64,000 nucleotides of DNA from Eledone cirrhosa (lineage: Eukaryota): assembly GCA_964016885.1 (NCBI GenBank), contig OZ024755.1, positions 37,572,001 through 37,636,000 of the forward strand, given 5' to 3'. Position numbers and translations under genes: made by a program. The stretch's first letter is position 1; each line of letters starts with the position of its first letter. The notes beneath the pieces are model-generated. The model did not search any database. It saw only the letters and a program-made list of their open reading frames with translations, and had not been told where the DNA came from. This document shows, in pieces, positions 1,261 to 44,180 of this stretch.

Positions 1261-3124
1261 TATACATCGCTATTTCAGAGCATCAATCCTAATACCTAAT
1301 TTTTGCTGGACCTGTAATCACTCTGTTTAATCAACTCCTGATTATTACTGGAATTCTATAAGAATCCAACCTCTATAATTCTCGGCAAAGGCATCTGAGT
1401 GTGTAGTCTTGATAAATGCTCTCTGTTGTTTTTGCCAAGAATAAGTGACATAGTCACGACTTTAAAACCAATAGCGAATGGTCAACCTACTAAATAGAAA
1501 ATCAGGAATTTTCTCCACGTGTCCACGTTACCACAGATATTCTTTCTACTATTTCAAACCAAATAGCTAATATATAACAATGTCGGATATACTACCTTTA
1601 AGTTTATTTCATTTGCTTTTTGTAATTATATAACTACACCTTAACTTTAACACACCACACCACCTTATATCCTATCTGATATCCTTTTCTCTTATTTAAT
1701 TATCATATTATCACCATAACATATATATTAATAAACTCCTTCCTGGATCTCTTATCTAATACAAATCAAATCTTTCTTAATAACCAAATAAACAAACAAT
1801 TTAGACACCCTAATATGCTCTCCATCTTTACTACTAAAATAATATATAACTGTTTCTACTTTTGGCACAAGGCCAGCAATTATCCCAGTACATTACTGGT
1901 ACTTTATTTTATCGACTCCGTAAGGATGAAAGGCAAAGTTAACCTTGGCGGGATTTGATATGAAATCATATATAACACTAATTAAATACCTGACAACAGT
2001 GTCCACAACACTAATTACTCCATTATATATTGCAATATATTATATAAATCCCTATCTAGTTATTAATAATTTAATTTTCTTTACACAATCTGAATAAATA
2101 AGAATAACAAATAATTTTTATATATAATTGATAAATAATCAATAATATTTTATAGTTTATAAATATTAATTTATAATACCATTTAATGAATGATAATTTT
2201 TAATAGATAATAAACAATAATTTAGAATAATAAAACAACCCTTCTTTTATTGTCAACCGTGATACTTCCTTAATTGCCTCCCTTTGTTATTAACTTCCCT
2301 TAAGAATATCTTTCCACTTATTTTTTATATTCATAACGTTAAAACAATTTAACGACATTTTTACTATTAGACTTTGTCTAATAACTCTTATATAACTCTT
2401 ATAGAACTCTTTATGGAACTCCCACATAAAGCAAGGAAATTATTTCTTAATAGAACATTTAAAGATAGGAATGCATTGTATAATATATTTACTATACTAA
2501 CATGTCTAGTAATACAGTGGAATTAATCGTTACTAAACACATATTTTTAAACTGTACACATCTCAAACACATTACAACTAAAGTTAAAAACATTCCATGT
2601 TTAATACAATTGCTTTACACCCAACATATACATTTACACACGTACTCTAATATAAATTTTCTTGAATGCCAATTACCTATCTTATTGACTTATATTTTTT
2701 GCATTATACATACATTACACAACATTTATTCATTTTATCATTACATATTTCTTTAACATTCTATATGAAATATGCTTTATTTATTTATTATATAACTCTT
2801 ACCTTATGCATGCCTTTATTAAATTCTGCTTTATATACCCCTTACATTACCTTCTTTTCAATGCTATGATATCTTTTATCTTTCCTCTCTCACATCTTTT
2901 TTGCTTGGTATCTTTTGCACATGTATTACCTTAAAGAATATCTTTATATATAATATGCTCAATATTTCACTCTTCGCCATTGCTCCTTATACTGTGATAT
3001 CTGTAACATACATCTTTTTGTAACTCCTGCTTTTAATATGATGTCACTGACACTGTCAATAGTTATGTATCTTTATCAATGTTCTGAAGACTAGGATTAT
3101 AATTACTTGCTTAAACATTCTGTA

Positions 3125-3172
3125 TGGTCCGATGAAGCCAGACATTCGTCTGGAAGAAACAATTGTCAGCAA
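3125..3172 (+). ncRNA. Degenerate type I hammerhead ribozyme motif
   Basis: CCGATGA - AG CCAGAC attc GTCTGG AA - GAAA CAATTG TC. Stem III is palindromic. Core has U4>C and stem I is weak. Confidence 0.55.
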
Positions 3173-3615
3173 TTAAAATGTATTAAACTAAAATTTGATT
3201 GTTTTATATTTTGTATCTCGGCTCTGAAATATATTTGATAATTTACATTGAGTATTTTCTCTTACCGGTAATTGGCTAGTACTTAGTACTACCCTCCTTA
3301 TTCATAATTATAAATAACTCATATATACGTATAGATATTATTATTATTACTTATATATATATATATATATATAAGTATGCATGTATACGTACATACATAT
3401 ATGTATACAGACGTACAGAAGCATGCACATATATATATATATATACATATATACATACATATGCATACAGGTACACATACATATATGCACGTATCAGTTT
3501 AGCGGCGCTTATTATAACGTCGCTTTGTTCGTTTGTAAACAAACTGAACAGCCTGAATTTATGCCATACGGTGTTAAGGCAACCACGTCACCTTTTTGTT
3601 CAACACTGACACAGG

Positions 3616-3660
3616 AACGATGTACTAGTTTCAAGCTTGTTAGCTATCATCAGCACCGTT
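3616..3660 (-). ncRNA. Minimal type I hammerhead ribozyme (intact core)
   Basis: Minus strand: AACGGTG CTGATGA T AGCT aaca AGCT T GAAA CTAG TA CATCGTT. Stem I is 7 bp and stem III is palindromic. Confidence 0.85.
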
Positions 3661-4052
3661 TACCCATCTGCCAGATAGTTGAACGTTCGAAAGTATATAC
3701 TTTCCTTATGAAAATTAACGGCTGAGCAGCCTAATTTGCATATTGAGTGAGTTAAATCGGTCAGGCATACCTGTATGCATATGTATGTATATATGTATAT
3801 ATATATATATATGTGCATGCTTCTGTACGTCTGTATACATATATGTATGTACGTATACATGCATACTTACATTTAAGTAAGTGCCATACTAAGAGTGAGA
3901 AATGAAATTTCGTTTTCATTTTGTTTCAATTTATCGTTTTCGGTATGCCTGACCGATTTAACTCACTCAATATGCAAATTAGGCTGCTCAGCCGTTAATT
4001 TTCATAAGGAAAGTATATACTTTCGAACGTTCAACTATCTGGCAGATGGGTA

Positions 4053-4097
4053 AACGGTGCTGATGATAGCTAACAAGCTTGAAACTAGTACATCGTT
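4053..4097 (+). ncRNA. Minimal type I hammerhead ribozyme (intact core)
   Basis: AACGGTG CTGATGA T AGCT aaca AGCT T GAAA CTAG TA CATCGTT. Predicted cleavage after GUA at 4090. Confidence 0.85.
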
Positions 4098-4400
4098 CCT
4101 GTGTCAGTGTTGAACAAAAAGGTGACGTGGTTGCCTTAACACCGTATGGCATAAATTCAGGCTGTTCAGTTTGTTTACAAACGAACAAAGCGACGTTATA
4201 ATAAGCGCCGCTAAACTGATACGTGCATATATGTATGTGTACCTGTATGCATATGTATGTATATATGTATATATATATATATATGTGCATGCTTCTGTAC
4301 GTCTGTATACATATATGTATGTACGTATACATGCATACTTACATTTAAGTAAGTGCCATACTAAGAGTGAGAAATGAAATTTCGTTTTCATTTTGTTTCA

Positions 4401-4430
<30 letters not shown>

Positions 4431-4431
<1 letters not shown>

Positions 4432-4602
4432 GGAAAAAATATGACCCCGACGGCTATTTCTGGACAGAAATAGCCGTCTAAACGGCTTGAGCTCTGCCGT
4501 CGGGGGTCATACTTTTTCCTATTACCCACTCTACTTCCCTAAGTATTGAGTACTCTGGTGCGTTATGGTCCATCTGGTTCCTTACCACAATTCCTTCGTT
4601 TT
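4431..4602 (+). mobile_element. Short hairpin-containing element inserted in (TA)n; family also at 9372-9405 (partial), 23496-23690 and 43934-44140 (reverse)
   Basis: Shared GACCCCGACGGCT...AGCCGTCGGGGTC hairpin and shared tail ttacccactctact...gttccttaccaca.ttccttcg. Confidence 0.8.
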
Positions 4603-5289
4603 ATATATATATATATATCCACACATACACGCGGGCGGTGGGTTGGCAGAATCGGTAGAGCGTCGGAAAACATGCTTAGCGGCATAGAGATATGGCCCTT
4701 TATGTTCTGAGTTTAAATCCCACCGAGGTGTAGCTTTGTCGGTTATCTTTACGGTGTCATAAAATAAAGTACCAGTAACGCACTGGAGTTGATTTAATTG
4801 ACTTCCCGCTCTCCTAAAATTGCTAGCCTTGTGCCAAAACCAGAAACCGTTATATTGTCTATAGGAATATCCCAACACAACACTATTGTAACATCGAAAT
4901 AACATAGGGCGTATGTTAGAACCTTTCAGCAAGGCAATTAATCCATTAATAACAACAATACTAATTATCTAAATATCATCGGAAATTCAATCTACAACTA
5001 ACTCAACCTGACAAAGGTCACATAATTTATAAATCTGGATTCAACAGACGACAAGTATGAGATACAAACCTAGGTCTAACAAGGGAAAATAGCACCAATT
5101 GCAAACATTGAAATTACACCCCTACCCCTGCAGCAAGCTATATAGTAGCTGTTAGACAATGGGATGGACAGCATAGTTTAAATAAATGAGGGTTTAGGGT
5201 ATTAAACTGAATTTTCATTTGTTCTACAGGTATCGTTTACACTTAAGTATACGTAAAGTATTGGCAAACGTGTTAGTGTATTTAAAGTG

Positions 5290-7945
5290 AGAGATCTGTG
5301 TAATACTGATCTGTGTAATACTGATCTGTGACAAATATTAAAGGGAGAGATCTGTGATAAATATTAAAGGGAAAGATCTGTGTAATATTGATCTGTGACA
5401 AATATTAAAGGGAGTGATCTGTGTTATACTGATCTGTGACAAATATTAAAGGGAGTGATCTGTGAAATATTCATCTGTGTAATACTGATCTGTGTAATAC
5501 TGATCTGTCACAAATATTAAAGGGAGTGATCTGTGTAATACTGATCTGTGACAAATATTAAAGGGAGTGATCTGTGTAATACTGATCTGTGACAAATATG
5601 TAAGGGAGAGATATGTGTAATACTGATCTGTGACAGATATTTAAGGGAGAGATCTGTGTAATACTGATCTGTGACAAATATTAAAGGGAGAGATCTGTGT
5701 AATACTGATCTGTGACAAATATTAAAGGGAGAGATCTGTGTAATACTGATCTGTGACAAATATAAAAGGGAGAGATCTGTGTAATACTGATCTGTGACAA
5801 ATATTAAAGGGAGAGATCTGTGTAATACTGATCTGTGACAAATATTAAAGGGAGAGATCTGTGTAATACTGATCTGTGACAAATATTAAAGGGAGAGATC
5901 TGTGTAATATTGATCTGTGATAAATATTAAAGGGAAAGATCTGTGTAATACTGATCTGTGACAAATATTAAAGGGAGAGATCTGTGTAATATTGATCTGT
6001 GACAAATATTAAAGGGAGAGATCTGTGTAATATTGATCTGTGACAAATATTAAAGGGAGAGATCTGTGTAATATTGATCTGTGACAGATATTAAAGGGAG
6101 AGATCTGTGTAATACTGATCTGTGACAAATATTAAAGGGAGAGATCTGTGTAATATTGATCTGTGACAAATATTAAAGGGAGAGATCTGTGTAATATTGA
6201 TCTGTGACAAATATTAAAGGGAGAGATCTGTGTAATATTGATCTGTGACAAATATTAAAGGGAGAGATCTGTGTAATACTGATCTGTGACAAATATTAAA
6301 GGGAGAGATCTGTGTAATATTGATCTGTGACAGATATTAAAGGGAGAGATCTGTGTAATATTGATCTGTGACAGATATTAAAGGGAGAGATCTGTGTAAT
6401 ATTGATCTGTGACAGATATTAAAGGGAGAGATCTGTGTAATAATGATCTGTGACAAATATTAAAGGAAGAGATCTGTGTAATACTGATCTTTGACAAATA
6501 TTAAAGGGAGTGATCTGTGTAATACTGATCTTTGACAAATATTAAAGGGAGTGATCTGTGTAATATTGATCTGTGACATATTAAAGGGAGTGATCTGTGC
6601 AATACTGATCTGTGACAAATATTAAAGGGAGAGATCTGTGTAATACTGATCTTTGACAAATATTAAAGGGAGTGATCTGTGTAATATTGATCTGTGACAA
6701 ATATTAAAGGGAGAGATCTGTGTAATACTGATCTTTGACAAATATTAAAGGGAGAGATCTGTGTAATACTGATCTGTGACAAATATTAAAGGGAGTGATC
6801 TGTGTAATACTGATCTGTGACAAATATTAAAGGGAGAGATCTGTGTAATATTGATCTGTGACAAATATTAAAGGGAGTGATCTGTGTAATACTGATCTGT
6901 GACAAATATTAAAGGGAGAGATCTGTGTAATACTGATCTGTGACATATATTAAAGGGAGTGATCTGTGTAATACTGATCTTTGACAAATATTAAAGGGAG
7001 TGATCTGTGTAATACTGATCTTTGACAAATATTAAAGGGAGTGATCTGTGTAATACTGATCTGTGACAAATATTAAAGGGAGAGATCTGTGTAATACTGA
7101 TCTTTGACAAATATTAAAGGGAGTGATCTGTGTAATACTGATCTGTGACAAATATTAAAGGGAGAGATCTGTGTAATACTGATCTTTGACAAATATTAAA
7201 GGGAGAGATCTGTGTAATACTGATCTGTGACAAATATTAAAGGAGTGATCTGTGTAATACTGATCTTTGACAAATATTAAAGGGAGAGATCTGTGTAATA
7301 CTGATCTGTGACAAATATTAAAGGGAGAGATCTGTGTAATACTGATCTTTGACAAATATTAAAGGGAGAGATCTGTGTAATACTGATCTTTGACAAATAT
7401 TAAAGGGAGTGATCTGTGTAATACTGATCTTTGACAAATATTAAAGGGAGAGATCTGTGTAATACTGATCTTTGACAAATATTAAAGGGAGTGATCTGTG
7501 TAATACTGATCTGTGACAAATATTAAAGGGAGAGATCTGTGTAATACTGATCTTTGACAAATATTAAAGGGAGAGATCTGTGTAATACTGATCTGTGACA
7601 AATATTAAAGGGAGAGATCTGTGTAATACTGATCTGTGACAAATATTAAAGGGAGAGATCTGTGTAATACTGATCTGTGACAAATATTAAAGGGAGAGAT
7701 CTGTGTAATACTGATCTGTGACAAATATTAAAGGGAGTGATCTGTGTAATACTGATCTGTGACAAATATTAAAGGGAGTGATCTGTGTAATACTGATCTG
7801 TGACAAATATTAAAGGGAGAGATCTGTGTAATACTGATCTGTGACAAATATTAAAGGGAGAGATCTGTGTAATACTGATCTGTGATAGATATTAAAGGGA
7901 GTGATCTGTGTAATATTGATCTGTGATAGATATTAAAGGATATTA
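5290..7945. repeat. 41-bp satellite GATCTGTGTAATACTGATCTGTGACAAATATTAAAGGGAGA, about 60+ copies
   Basis: Period of 41 counted directly. Confidence 0.97.
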
Positions 7946-12261: not shown

Positions 12262-13195
12262 TCAGACGCGCATACAAATAACAAAGCCAGGGGAATTTTT
12301 TGATGCCACAACACTACACAGAGAAATGGCTGGCTTCAACCACATAGATATAACAGAGGAAGATGTAATATCAGCCATAGAAGAAATGAGAGCAATCATT
12401 CTAAAAACATGCTCGTGAGCCTTAGTAAGACCACTGAAGAACCTCTTCAGAAGTTCCTTGGCTAGCAGTAAACTACACAGAGAGCTAAAGGAAGACACAA
12501 TATGCCCTATCTATAAAGGAGCAAACAGAGCGGATGCTAAAACTACAGGCCAGTCTCCCTGACGTCACATAACAGTATGGTCATGGAACGAATCATCAGA
12601 AAGAAACTGATCCCATTCCTCGCCTAACTAACACTCAACATGGCTTTCGCCTGGGAAGAAGCTGCTTTACACAGCTGTTATAACACTATGACTGGGTACT
12701 GAAACAACTGCTGGACAGCTCACATGTGGACGTGATATATCTTGACTTTGTGAAGGCCTTTGACAAGGTCGACCACGGAATGATATGTCACAAACTACAC
12801 GGACTCGGCATATCTGGAAAAGTAGGTGAGTGGTTGCATGATTTCTTAAAAGAAACATCAATAACAAGTGGGGTGCCCCAGGGCACAGTCTTGGGACCAC
12901 TACTGTTTTTGGTGGCTCTCTCATACATGCCCTCTGTAGTACATACAACATCCCTCACTAGCTATGCTGATGACACTAAGGTAGCACAGACAATCAAAAA
13001 ACGGGCTTATGCTACACTTTTACAACAAGATCTGGATGACATATACAAATGGGCTGAGGACAACAACATGTGATTTAATGCTAGAAAATGTCAAGCCCTA
13101 CAATATCAACCTGCTAACACAAGGACAGTACAACAAAGCTACAATGGACCAGGAGGAATCGAAATCCCTGTGTGCAAAGCGAAACTGGATTTGAA
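12262..13195 (+). mobile_element. Degraded CR1/L2-clade LINE reverse transcriptase fragment
   Basis: NYRPVSLTS, QHGFR, DVIYLDFVKAFDKVDH, SGVPQGTVLGPLLFL and YADDTK motifs, with stops and an internal deletion. Confidence 0.9.
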
Positions 13196-13946: not shown

Positions 13947-16900
13947 CTAGACCACCCGTGACCCGTTGGGTCATGTTCACTTAAAAATAATTTTTAAATA
14001 ATTAAAATATACACAAAATGTATATTATGTAAAATGACATTGGAAAGGCAATATATATATATACGTGTATGTGTGTGTGTGTATATACGTGTATATATAT
14101 ATATATATATGTGTGTGTTTTTGTGTGTGTGAGTGTCTGTGGCCTATATACACTGGTCACACACACACACAGACATACATCCTGTCCTAACACAAGTTAT
14201 AAGATACATATAACTTAATATTCAGTCACCAAATACAAGCTAGATACAGTAATGCTGTATTCGATTCTTTGAAGTCACCTGTCATAATTTCATTCAACAA
14301 CACCACCAGCTCTCTCCCCCTCTCTCTCTCTCTCTCTCACAACCACTATCTGCGTTTGTATTCACATTTCAATGGTACCTTACTTTCAAAGTATTTTCCC
14401 ATTATGCGCTGATTTGGCTATTTATAAAGGTACCCGAAAAAAACCCGCGTATCTCGGGAACCCGTGGTCCGATTTACGCGAAACTTGTCTTTTCACTGTA
14501 TTATTCACAAGTATTTTCACAAAGAAAATATCAAATCATTTTTCACTAATAGCTATCCAATCACTCCACTTCAAAATTCTTGTTTCTATATCTCTATGTC
14601 TGCTTGACTGTTTGTTCTGAAATATTTTTCTGCTTAAAAAGTTGCAATGTTAATGAAAAGCTGCTTTATTTACAAAAATTTGAAATAAATTATTCTTACT
14701 TGTTCTCTCTCATGAATTGGAAATCCAAGTACCAAGGCAACAGCTTCTGAAGGACCGATATATCTTCCTGTTAAATACTGTATTATCTCATCTTCCCTGT
14801 TCACTCCAAACATTGCCTGATCACTGCCCTTCATGGTATATTTGATAACGTATTTGATCGATTTCACGGAAGAGCACATCTCTACGTTTAGGTGGCAGTT
14901 GAACAGTTTTAATAGTTTCATATTGTAGGGAGCCACCCATTCCGAAGTTATATTTCGGCTTCCCCTTCCTTCTTGGTGCCCCTCAAATCCTCCCATTCCT
15001 GGAGACCATCTTCTGTACACAAGATAAGAGTCCTCTCCACACAATGTATATTCACTGAAAGGCTTAAGGTACCGCTTACTGCACGTTCCATCTTTCCAAC
15101 ACGGCGAATTGTTAGAGCAATTCGGACCGTGGATCCTGTGCTTCAGCACCAATTCATGACCCTCTGGATCTTTGTTTGGATCTGGTATTTCGGCTTGAAC
15201 AAATTTACCATATTCCTGCAGTCTGGGCTTGGAGGCTTCATTGAGCCATAGCAAACAGTGCACATGAGGAATACCTCGCTTTTGACATTCGACTGTCAGC
15301 ACCTAAGCAATGCACGTGCCAAATAGGTCATCTACTCCAGTAAGATACTTTCTTAACAGTTTCCGCTTCAGGTCAAATACTCTGGCAATTAAATCTGGCC
15401 TGTCATGTGGCTTCTTATTCAGGAATAGGTTTTGCCGGATTTCGGGCCAGTTTGGATTGCATGTCATTGTGATGAAGAACGAAGGATTGCCGTACTTCCG
15501 TATGTACATCATGGCATTCTAGCATCGTTCCATCATATATCTCGGTCCACCGACAAATGTGGAAGAGAGTATGATTCGCCTGCCAATATTGCGAAAATCG
15601 TCATCATTCAATGCGTCAGTAAGGCCCTTGTATGTTGTAGATCGCAATGATGTTTGATTCATTCGGATGTATTGCAGTCTATCTCCTTCAATCTTCGCAG
15701 CCAAATATTGCTGAAATAAACGACCACCTCTGAGAAATTGGTTGAATTCATTCTCATGGTTCATTATTAGATAGGCATAGTAGCGCATTGGCAACACCTT
15801 CTTGTTGTTGCTCTTTAACAGCTCATGATGCCATCCGTCATCGCCAAAAGGAAAAAATAGAACATACTGCAAACTGTCATAGGACCGATGGGACTGAGAT
15901 TATTTGCAATTGTCCGCCTTTTTCTTTCAACACAGTGTGCCGTGCTTTTGCTTGAAGTTCGGTGCTGTTTTGTATAATAACGGCAACTTCGTTTGCAGTT
16001 TGTGCATTGAATCTTCTCTCATGTTCCATTGTTGGTCTCCTATCAGGATCAATAATAATCGAAGCTTCAGGAATATTTTTAATTTGTTCTTTTGCCATTC
16101 GAAATGAAGCAACGTAAAGGTTATATTGTCTGAGTATTATTTCCAATAATTCAACTATGTCGCGCTGAATGCCATCATTATGGAGTATCCTGATCCTCAA
16201 ATCAACACTATCCTGAGGATCCAAGAAGTAAATTTGAAGAAATTTGGGTTGTTCGTTGGGATTAGGGGTTAAGGAACTGGTGTAATGGTGAATTTGACCA
16301 TGAATAACGATAGAAGGATTCCATCCACTCCTTGAGGAACGAACTTCTTCGGCCTCAAAAGATGTCATTTGGAAGAGGCAGTTATATTGTCTGAGATCCT
16401 TCCTGAACTCGTTTGCCCTAGGTTGATCAGTACTAAATAAACTGTGAAGTTCCTGGGGTAAAGGCTGCAGATTCCCCAACCTGACTTTTCCATTCATACA
16501 GCAAAAGTTAGCAGTTTCTCCATGAAAAAGCATTGCATGACAACAGACACAGATCTTATTCATCTGTCCAACATCAGTAGAGAGGTCACGTCGTTGAACT
16601 GTCCTTGCTCTATCCCTAATGGTTTGTTGGCAAAGACGCACAGCTCTCCGACCATCCGATTCATGATTTCTCCTTCTTCTGTCTCTTTCTCTCTGTTCCG
16701 CCAGACGCGCAGCCCTTGCTTTATCAGTCTCATCGATCCTTCTATTCGCATGCCTGTCCCAATCTTGTTGGCGTTGACCACTATCTTGCTCACCTTCTTC
16801 GGCTCTCCTTAGCCGTGCTTTCTTTCCACTATCGATAGACCAACCAGATGTTTTCTTTCTTCCTCGTCGAGGCATTATTTAAGAATAATCGTATTCACCT

Positions 16901-23495: not shown

Positions 23496-23690
23496 ATAGG
23501 AACAAGTAAGACCCCGACGGCTGAGCTCAAGCCGTTTCGACGGCTAATTCTGGACTGAATTAGCCGTCGAAACGGCTTGAGCTCAGCCGTCGGGATCTTA
23601 CTTGTTCCTATTACCCACTCTACTACCCTAAGTATTGAGTACTTTGGTGCGTTATGGTCCACCTGGTTCCTTACCACATTTCCTTCGTTA
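23496..23690 (+). mobile_element. Same hairpin element; near-perfect 116-bp palindrome at 23496-23611
   Basis: Arms are centred on GAATTC/tggact/GAATT. Flanked by (TA)n. Confidence 0.8.
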
Positions 23691-23700
23691 TATATATATA

Positions 23701-24070
23701 TAGCAAAAGAATGAATAACATGGTCAGCTGTACAATAGGGTTTATTTACAGTATTAACAATTGTTTCATTAGTCCGGTGTCTAAAAGTCACTGATTGTTA
23801 GAAGATACGTCACTCGACCGTAATTAGTTGATACCTGACCAAATCATCAGAATACTGATATGTGTACATGTATCTATAAATACTAGCGCACTGTATAATG
23901 TACACATATCAGTGTTCTGACTTCATCAGGTATTGACTGTAATTAAGGTCGAGTGACGTAACTTCTAACGATCAGCAACTTTTAGACACACCTGAATAAA
24001 GAAACAATTGTTAATACTTAAATAAACCCTATTATACAGCCGACCATGTTATTCTTCATTCTTTTACTAT
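23701..24070. mobile_element. Long imperfect palindrome (arms about 170 bp) carrying a hammerhead
   Basis: 23701-23869 is the reverse complement of about 23898-24070. Starts at a (TA)n tract. Confidence 0.7.
23749..23857 (-). ncRNA. Type I hammerhead ribozyme with about 60-nt loop 2
   Basis: Minus strand: CAGTATT CTGATGA T TTGGTC ... GACTAA T GAAA CAATTG TT AATACTG. Stem I is a perfect 7 bp and stem III is palindromic. Confidence 0.75.
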
Positions 24071-43933: not shown

Positions 43934-44137
43934 TAACGAAGGAAATGTGGTAAGGAACCAGGTGGACCATAACGCACCAAAGTACTCACTACTTAGGGTA
44001 GTAGAGTGGGTAATAGTAGAGTAGGACCCCGACGGCTGAGCTCAAGCCGTTTCGATGGCTAATTTTGAATTAGTCCAGCTAAGTCCAGAATTAGCCGTCG
44101 AAATGGCTTGAGCTCAGCCGTCGGGGTCCTACTCGTT

Positions 44138-44140
<3 letters not shown>
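43934..44140 (-). mobile_element. Same hairpin element in reverse orientation, in a RAP1GDS1 intron
   Basis: Reverse-complement match to 23496-23690. Flanked by (TA)n. Confidence 0.8.

Positions 44141-44180
<40 letters not shown>

What the first reader, a model, noticed from the sequence alone, without database searches (positions are those of the whole stretch)
3372..4406. Young two-strand ribozyme cassette: identical intact hammerheads on both strands, inverted + partial-tandem architecture
Seen: the two ~400-bp arms look identical by eye (the ORF track gives the same 114-aa peptide on both strands). Each arm has an intact hammerhead, and a 165-bp truncated tandem copy lies between them. 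Transcription from either direction makes a ribozyme, but read-through makes a long hairpin that would sequester it. Inference: a very recent PLE-type insertion built by RT template switching, and a possible dsRNA, siRNA or ADAR substrate.
Basis: partly seen in the sequence, partly recalled or inferred. Interest (0 to 1): 0.75.

Follow-up and report, generated by a model that had tools for sequence, protein, structure and literature searches.

The report
Twin-primed copy of a ribozyme retroelement
This mirror-image insertion is one young copy among thousands of a small ribozyme-bearing jumping repeat, and the family's paired ends show a near-fixed rule (one short, one 60 bases longer) that likely records how Penelope-type enzymes copy a single, probably circular, RNA from both sides of the DNA cut.

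Summary
The anatomy is real: two 400-nt arms, 100% identical, and a 167-nt partial tandem copy, with one type I hammerhead core per strand. The locus is not special. It is one copy of a ~470-nt non-LTR retrozyme family (at least 10,122 exact hammerhead copies), and 65 of 97 other sampled insertions are also head-to-head inverted, the published Penelope layout. With one hammerhead per strand and a 2-bp helix III it is probably a dead-end daughter copy.

The family evidence favours twin priming over 'RT template switching'. Ends lie in (TA)n at two sites about 60 nt apart, and 56 of 57 inverted loci with two canonical ends pair one short with one tailed end. Rare variants are shared across arms. 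One locus repeats five clustered, genome-unique A>G changes in successive monomers of both arms, a likely ADAR footprint in one circular template. A family-wide A>G excess was not replicated (third set uninformative). An active Neptune-like element shows the same ~58-nt tail rule but no sequence match. Expression, cleavage and polymorphism are untested. The scan noted the same pattern before on other DNA, in this genome and others.

The parts
3352..3373 (.). Left (TA)n target tract
   Evidence: sequence; (TA)n lies at nearly all sampled 3' ends
3372..3771 (-). Inverted arm, unit positions 8-407; its outer end is the family's 'short' start site
3616..3660 (-). Type I hammerhead, minus-strand copy; predicted cut at 3623
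   Evidence: mirror of 4053-4097
3768..3771 (.). 4-nt microhomology at the inversion joint
3768..3934 (+). 5'-truncated tandem copy, unit positions 306-472 (167 nt)
3935..4406 (+). Full 472-nt retrozyme monomer; its outer end is the family's 'tailed' start site
4053..4097 (+). Type I hammerhead: core 4060-4066 and 4081-4084, 2-bp palindromic helix III, predicted cut after 4090
4342..4406 (+). ~60-nt 'tail', present at one outer end only; holds a hairpin (4372-4393) that is A>G changed in locus L143
4404..4431 (.). Right (TA)n target tract; no target-site duplication can be read in the TA tracts
   Evidence: sequence

Best explanation
This is a young, probably dead-end genomic copy of a high-copy hammerhead retrozyme, likely pasted into a TA microsatellite by a Penelope-like enzyme that primed DNA synthesis from both cut strands on one RNA. 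Inferred steps: (1) a tandem source locus is transcribed, and paired hammerheads would cut out a ~470-nt monomer that is circularised; (2) a Penelope-type endonuclease nicks both strands of (TA)n; (3) one 3' end primes at the tailed site (unit ~472) and the other at the short site (unit ~407-413) of the same RNA; (4) both cDNAs run the same way along the template, here 639 and 400 nt, through the uncut or religated ribozyme site, the trailing one displacing the leading one; (5) the two cDNA ends are joined at a 4-nt microhomology, which gives the head-to-head inversion and the partial tandem. Shown: the anatomy, the copy number, the end rule and shared variants. Inferred: the enzyme, the circle, strand displacement and the joining pathway.
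For: 10,122 exact 40-mer hammerhead matches, control 0; 1,709 and 4,458 matches for two young subtypes. Of 97 independent other loci, 65 are head-to-head inverted (31 of 50, 25 of 33, 9 of 14). Of 57 with both outer ends at a canonical site, 56 pair short with tailed; L027 is short/short. Sets 2 and 3 were predicted in notes before fetching: 23 of 23 and 8 of 8; independent choice gives at most 0.5 each. In L147, L149, L157 and L166 neither arm contains the other, so both were templated from RNA. In L059, L157, L166 and L173 the tailed arm stops at unit 408-425, at or just before the other primer site. Of 36 rare variants shared within a locus, 26 are in every covering segment, 17 of them across both arms. 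The window's own variant at unit 360 is in all three segments and elsewhere only as two single copies. L143 carries five clustered A>G changes in the monomers of both arms (four in all 3 covering segments, one in the 2 that cover it), four of the five at predicted paired positions, and this pattern is found nowhere else in the genome. An autonomous Neptune-like element (1269-aa ORF, at least 150 copies at 96-100% identity) has a 58-59-nt tail, (TA)n targets and 13 of 14 short/tailed pairs. In vitro, an anole Penelope protein cuts and extends both strands from two internal start sites that define the tail, and is predicted to be a dimer (PMC11167929).
Against: No cognate autonomous partner was found: no significant sequence match to the termini of three Penelope families (best an 11-mer, E about 0.07). 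Two loci (L134, and the array in L070/L119) share a variant across arms in only some monomers, which points to multimeric templates at times. PMC11167929 found uncut RNA to be the main substrate in vitro and no difference in start site between strands. The family-wide A>G excess (14 of 30 shared against 23 of 261 private variants) is not strand-asymmetric without L143 (9 A>G against 4 T>C, p 0.27), and the third set gave only one shared variant, a G>A. Loci were sampled from one chromosome and through exact-match patterns, which favours young copies. End types were called partly by eye; 8 inverted loci had an unresolved or odd end and were left out of the 57. Cleavage is untested, and only 1 of 9 frog retrozyme dimers cleaved in vitro (10.64898/2026.07.22.740005).
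Confidence: 0.75

Rival explanations
1. Dual priming: two separate RNA molecules from the same source are copied from the two nicks.
For: The arms overlap over 400 nt, which on one RNA needs strand displacement. Dual priming is proposed for L1 (PMC2837659, passages). Shared subtype variants could come from one source locus.
Against: It does not explain why the two ends almost never use the same site (56 of 57). The identical A>G cluster in both arms of L143 has no source locus in the assembly. Four tailed arms stop at the other primer site.
Confidence: 0.1
2. Fold-back or self-priming: one cDNA snaps back and copies itself, or an antisense RNA self-primes (proposed in PMC3846280).
For: In the window the short arm is wholly contained in the tailed arm. 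A few joints are near-palindromic (L142, L134, L154).
Against: In L147, L149, L157 and L166 neither arm contains the other. Both end types also occur alone in non-inverted copies, so both are priming sites. The window's joint is a 4-nt microhomology, not a palindrome.
Confidence: 0.06
3. RT template switching between RNAs built the cassette.
For: Short templated inserts occur at some joints (L141, L143, L149, L161).
Against: A switch between sense RNAs cannot invert the strand. The tandem joint at 3934/3935 is the family's normal monomer joint. Both outer ends are fixed sites in (TA)n.
Confidence: 0.04
4. A selected two-strand ribozyme or dsRNA regulatory cassette, or homogenisation of the arms by gene conversion after insertion.
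For: The arms are perfectly identical, and read-through would form a 400-bp hairpin.
Against: The same layout occurs at 65 of 97 loci with scattered joints. 238 rare variants are private to one segment, so arms drift apart after insertion. No link to a host gene was found.
Confidence: 0.05

Closest known systems
Metazoan non-LTR retrozymes (Cervera and de la Pena 2020, PMC7229834, passages; Li, Clavereau and Pollet 2026, 10.64898/2026.07.22.740005, parts 1-3 of 5)
   Same: Non-coding tandem monomer of a few hundred bases, low GC, one type I hammerhead per unit with a weak palindromic helix III, thousands of copies, Penelope elements in the same genome.
   Different: The monomer (~470 nt) is slightly above the 150-450 bp quoted. 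In the parts read, these papers do not describe inverted insertions, fixed start sites or (TA)n targeting ('inverted' occurs 0 times in PMC7229834). This locus has one ribozyme per strand, so it fails Li's criterion of two consecutive units for an active copy. No sequence link to a Penelope terminal repeat was found here.
Insertions of endonuclease-bearing Penelope-like elements (Craig et al. 2021, PMC8557442, passages; Arkhipova et al. 2013, PMC3846280, passages)
   Same: Partial tandem, inverted 5'-truncated copy at the 5' end, tail at one end only, microsatellite targets.
   Different: No RT or GIY-YIG ORF; the tail is ~60 nt rather than 30-40. Those papers leave the origin of the inversion open or invoke self-priming.
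Anole Poseidon element in vitro (Frangieh et al. 2024, PMC11167929, parts 1-2 of 4)
   Same: Two internal start sites that define the tail; both strands cut and extended; AT-rich target.
   Different: No pairing of the two sites within one insertion is reported. The template there is coding and uncut.
L1 twin priming (as described in Meyer et al. 2010, PMC2837659, passages)
   Same: A second primer from the top-strand nick gives an inverted cDNA, joined internally with or without short microhomology.
   Different: In L1 the second site is variable and the arms barely overlap. Here it is fixed about 60 nt upstream and the arms overlap by hundreds of bases.

Membership tests
Non-LTR retrozyme | Type I hammerhead in each monomer | tested here: met
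   core and three helices at 4053-4097; Rfam only weak
Non-LTR retrozyme | Tandem monomers of a few hundred bases, low GC, many genomic copies | tested here: met
   446-540-nt monomers in arrays of up to 14 in one arm; at least 10,122 hammerheads
Non-LTR retrozyme | No protein, LTR, PBS or PPT | tested here: met
   the only ORF is antisense and has no Pfam match; no LTR layout; PBS and PPT were not searched separately
Non-LTR retrozyme | Self-cleavage and linear or circular RNA in cells | not testable with these tools
   no RNA run listed; a circle is only inferred from repeated template variants
Active retrozyme copy (Li et al. 2026 criterion) | Two consecutive units with complete hammerheads on one strand | tested here: not met
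   one hammerhead per strand at this locus; met by many other loci
Autonomous Penelope-like element | ORF with RT and GIY-YIG domains | tested here: not met
   none in or beside the unit
Penelope-type insertion product | Partial tandem, inverted 5'-truncated copy, one-sided tail | tested here: met
   window and 65 of 97 loci; 56 of 57 with a one-sided tail
Penelope-type insertion product | Target-site duplication | tested here: inconclusive
   unreadable in (TA)n; an ~11-nt duplication seen by eye at the one non-TA insertion, L165
Derivative of a Penelope terminal repeat (pLTR) | Sequence homology to the pLTR of a resident element | tested here: inconclusive
   no match to three families or in 62 Penelope-bearing loci apart from separate retrozyme copies; many families remain unsampled

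The most novel reading that the evidence does not exclude
Penelope-type enzymes insert by obligatory asymmetric twin priming: a dimer engages one RNA at two fixed sites about 60 nt apart, one per nicked strand, and can roll around a circular retrozyme. This family records that, including A-to-I edits of single RNA circles fixed in the germline genome and repeated in every monomer of both arms.
Probability: 0.55. Interest if true: 0.72.

Novelty: new member of a known kind. Interest (0 to 1): 0.48.

Why it matters
The locus itself is ordinary. The family matters because two points are stated as open in print: how Penelope elements make their tandem and inverted structures (PMC8557442) and how animal retrozymes are mobilised (10.64898/2026.07.22.740005). 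The short/tailed rule, shared by a non-coding retrozyme and an active Neptune-like element in the same genome, gives a precise prediction for the existing in vitro assay. Repeated template edits give a DNA-only way to detect circular intermediates. Nine paper searches listed no paper whose title, abstract start or read passages state this rule or fossil edits in retrozymes. The library lacks most subscription papers, and no supplements were read.

Tried and rejected
A DNA search of the own genome with the unit core returned nothing because common words are skipped; this says nothing on rarity. Rfam: the many miRNA hits are hairpin or TA artefacts below gathering score. Covariation in helix II: a pattern that demands changes on both sides of one pair found 13 copies, mostly unpaired, so there is no covarying subfamily and no support from covariation. 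The first similarity test against Penelope termini was invalid because masked letters matched each other; it was redone without masks and was negative. In-register test of arms: L141 first looked supportive, but the shared letters were the family's common state; only L134 and the L070/L119 array remain. Family-wide ADAR excess: the prediction could not be tested in set 3 (1 shared variant). No RNA holder was listed. Presence in many organisms: the two other organisms whose contigs were laid held one low-depth contig each, and a raw-read run of a fourth organism gave no laid reads, so this may be trace contamination and was not used. Insertion polymorphism: the left flank is itself a multi-copy repeat, and the contigs gave no empty-site joint; inconclusive. 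Pfam gave no family for the whole 1269-aa Penelope ORF; its assignment rests on a weak GIY-YIG hit and on RT and cysteine-linker motifs read by eye. L148 was dropped as a duplicate of L147.

Full report
Observation. The left arm 3372-3771 is the exact reverse complement of 3942-4341 (400 nt), and 3768-3934 is an exact copy of 4240-4406 (167 nt). Taking 3935-4406 as a 472-nt unit, the locus reads: (TA)n, unit 407 back to 8 on the minus strand, a 4-nt microhomology, unit 306-472, unit 1-472, (TA)n. Each arm holds one type I hammerhead: helix I 4053-4059/4091-4097, core CUGAUGA 4060-4066, helix II of 4 bp above a U-U mismatch, GAAA, and a 2-bp helix III closed by two bases within the palindrome ACUAGU, with a predicted cut after A4090. 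Rfam does not call it at gathering score and scores it 18.5 bits against HH9. The minimum-energy fold of the isolated motif pairs the core away. A short palindromic helix III is described as needing a second ribozyme copy (PMC4209133, passages), and a U-U mismatch at the base of helix II is described in an axolotl retrozyme (PMC7229834, passages). With one ribozyme per strand this copy cannot release a unit-length RNA, and read-through from either flank folds the core into a 400-bp hairpin. The 114-aa ORF is antisense to the ribozyme and has no Pfam match.

Family. An exact 40-mer over the ribozyme occurs 10,122 times in the 3.0-Gb genome, control 0; two young subtypes give 1,709 and 4,458 matches. 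I fetched the clusters of the first 100 listed hits of these three searches, all on contig C1: 50, 34 and 14 loci not fetched before. L148 duplicates L147, which leaves 97. Monomers are about 446-540 nt, in arrays of up to 14 in one arm. Head-to-head inversion is the majority form: 31 of 50, 25 of 33 and 9 of 14. Core divergence is 0.7% between opposite arms, 0.6% between tandem units and 3.6% between loci; 43 of 106 opposite-arm pairs are identical. The window's monomer differs from six of the seven close copies compared by 2-4 substitutions and from the seventh by 7. It is young but not exceptional. This matches non-LTR retrozymes laid down in the published Penelope pattern of partial tandem, inverted 5' copy and one-sided tail.

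End rule. The 3' ends cluster at unit ~405-415 (short) or ~464-472 (tailed), almost always in (TA)n. In set 1, 25 inverted loci pair short with tailed, L027 is short/short and 5 are unresolved. I wrote the prediction down before fetching sets 2 and 3. Set 2 gave 23 short/tailed (one with the tail cut at 457) and 2 with one odd end (L135 at unit 155, next to the ribozyme cut site; L161 at 71). Set 3 gave 8 short/tailed and 1 ending at 449. In all, 56 of 57 loci with two canonical ends are discordant, against at most one half by independent choice. Non-inverted copies end at either site, so both are priming sites. Calls were made partly by eye.

Mechanism. A jump between sense templates cannot invert a strand. 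Fold-back fails where neither arm contains the other (L147, L149, L157, L166). Priming from both nicked strands explains both TA joints. One RNA rather than two is favoured by four loci whose tailed arm stops at unit 408-425 (L059, L157, L166, L173), and by rare variants: of 36 shared within a locus, 26 lie in every covering segment, 17 of them across arms, while 238 are private to one segment (84 loci). The window's own change at unit 360 is in all three segments; the exact 46-mer occurs at only two other places, each as a single segment. Joints show 0-9 nt of microhomology in most loci, or short templated inserts, which suggests end joining of two cDNAs (inference). In vitro, an anole Penelope protein cuts and extends both strands from two internal sites that define the tail, is predicted to be a dimer, and uses uncut RNA. 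L1 twin and dual priming are the nearest described models.

Template. Locus-specific monomer lengths that are constant within a locus (459 in L140, 465 in L144, 476 in L177) fit rolling synthesis on a monomer circle or a uniform source array. L143 is more telling: five A>G changes at unit 430-456, four at predicted paired positions, recur in the monomers of both arms (four in all three covering segments, one in the two that cover it), and the pattern occurs nowhere else in the assembly. This looks like A-to-I editing of one circular molecule that was then copied repeatedly (inference; a source locus missing from the assembly is the alternative). Across all loci 14 of 30 shared variants are A>G against 23 of 261 private ones (Fisher p 9e-7; without L143, 9 of 24, p 4e-4). 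But A>G against T>C without L143 is 9 to 4 (p 0.27), retained ancestral letters could contribute, and set 3 held only one shared variant, a G>A, so the family-wide claim is not established. L134 and the L070/L119 array share variants across arms in only some monomers, so multimers also serve as templates.

Partner. The genome holds several young Penelope families. One Neptune-like family (clade name from the cysteine linker, read by eye) has a 1269-aa ORF, a minimal hammerhead, (TA)n targets and ends 26 and about 85 nt into the ORF. Of 18 loci fetched, 14 inverted ones had both ends resolved: 13 were short/tailed and 1 tailed/tailed. It shares the tail length with the retrozyme but no significant sequence, so the actual partner is not identified.

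Not testable. No RNA run was listed. Polymorphism was inconclusive because the flank is repetitive. Long reads were not available.

Comparison and verdict. It is a member of a non-LTR retrozyme family by ribozyme type, tandem monomer and lack of coding, and the product of a Penelope-type insertion. It is not an autonomous element, and it is not an active retrozyme copy by the two-unit criterion. Papers were seen as: 10.64898/2026.07.22.740005 parts 1-3 of 5, PMC11167929 parts 1-2 of 4, and passages of PMC8557442, PMC7229834, PMC4209133, PMC3846280 and PMC2837659; no supplements. Earlier notes of this scan report the same twin-priming rule and fossil edits on other DNA; I read them after recording my own results, and they are not evidence. 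The locus is ordinary; the family footprint makes an open mechanistic question testable. Interest 0.48.

Noticed in passing
window 4432-4523: A ~90-nt element with terminal inverted repeats and an inner hairpin (-50 kcal/mol) sits right after the right TA tract; similar copies lie at window 23496-23569 and 44086-44142 and flank L026 and L049. MITE-like.
   Followed up: partly
window 4627-4810: SINE-like repeat, 92% identical to window 23538-23702; its head resembles octopus-type tRNA-derived SINEs (recalled, not tested).
   Followed up: no
window 2700-3300: The left flank is another multi-copy repeat, with a degenerate hammerhead-like motif at about 3125-3170 and family ends in TA; probably an older Penelope relic.
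   Followed up: partly
window 13271 (+), 20863 (-), 43817 (+): Three copies of a different minimal hammerhead family with a TTTTAT...ATAAAA helix I and a palindromic ATATATAT-like helix III; relatives occur in many fetched loci.
   Followed up: no
window 5160-7800: 41-bp tandem satellite, about 60 copies at 95-98% identity.
   Followed up: no
window 12684-13073 and 14670-15900: RT fragment (RVT_1, E 8.5e-16) and Helitron helicase fragments.
   Followed up: no
L135:2295-2449: One arm ends at unit 155, one base before the predicted ribozyme cut; this may be priming at the 3' end of a self-cleaved RNA. Single case.
   Followed up: partly
L199:1950-2210 (minus strand): An older retrozyme copy is joined in sense, without a TA tract, to a 5'-truncated Penelope copy of the 784-aa family; either a chimera or a nested insertion.
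   Followed up: partly
L070/L119 array: A three-monomer pattern (one substitution, one 8-nt deletion, one plain unit) occurs twice in one arm and in part in the other; possibly a trimer circle or a later duplication.
   Followed up: partly
L147 and L148: The same insertion (same joint) is present twice, about 7 kb apart and inverted; a local segmental duplication.
   Followed up: no
L187-L200: A second very young Penelope family (784-residue open frame, at least 150 near-identical copies) showed no canonical hammerhead of its own in the stretch scanned behind its GIY-YIG domain; its ends were not mapped.
   Followed up: partly
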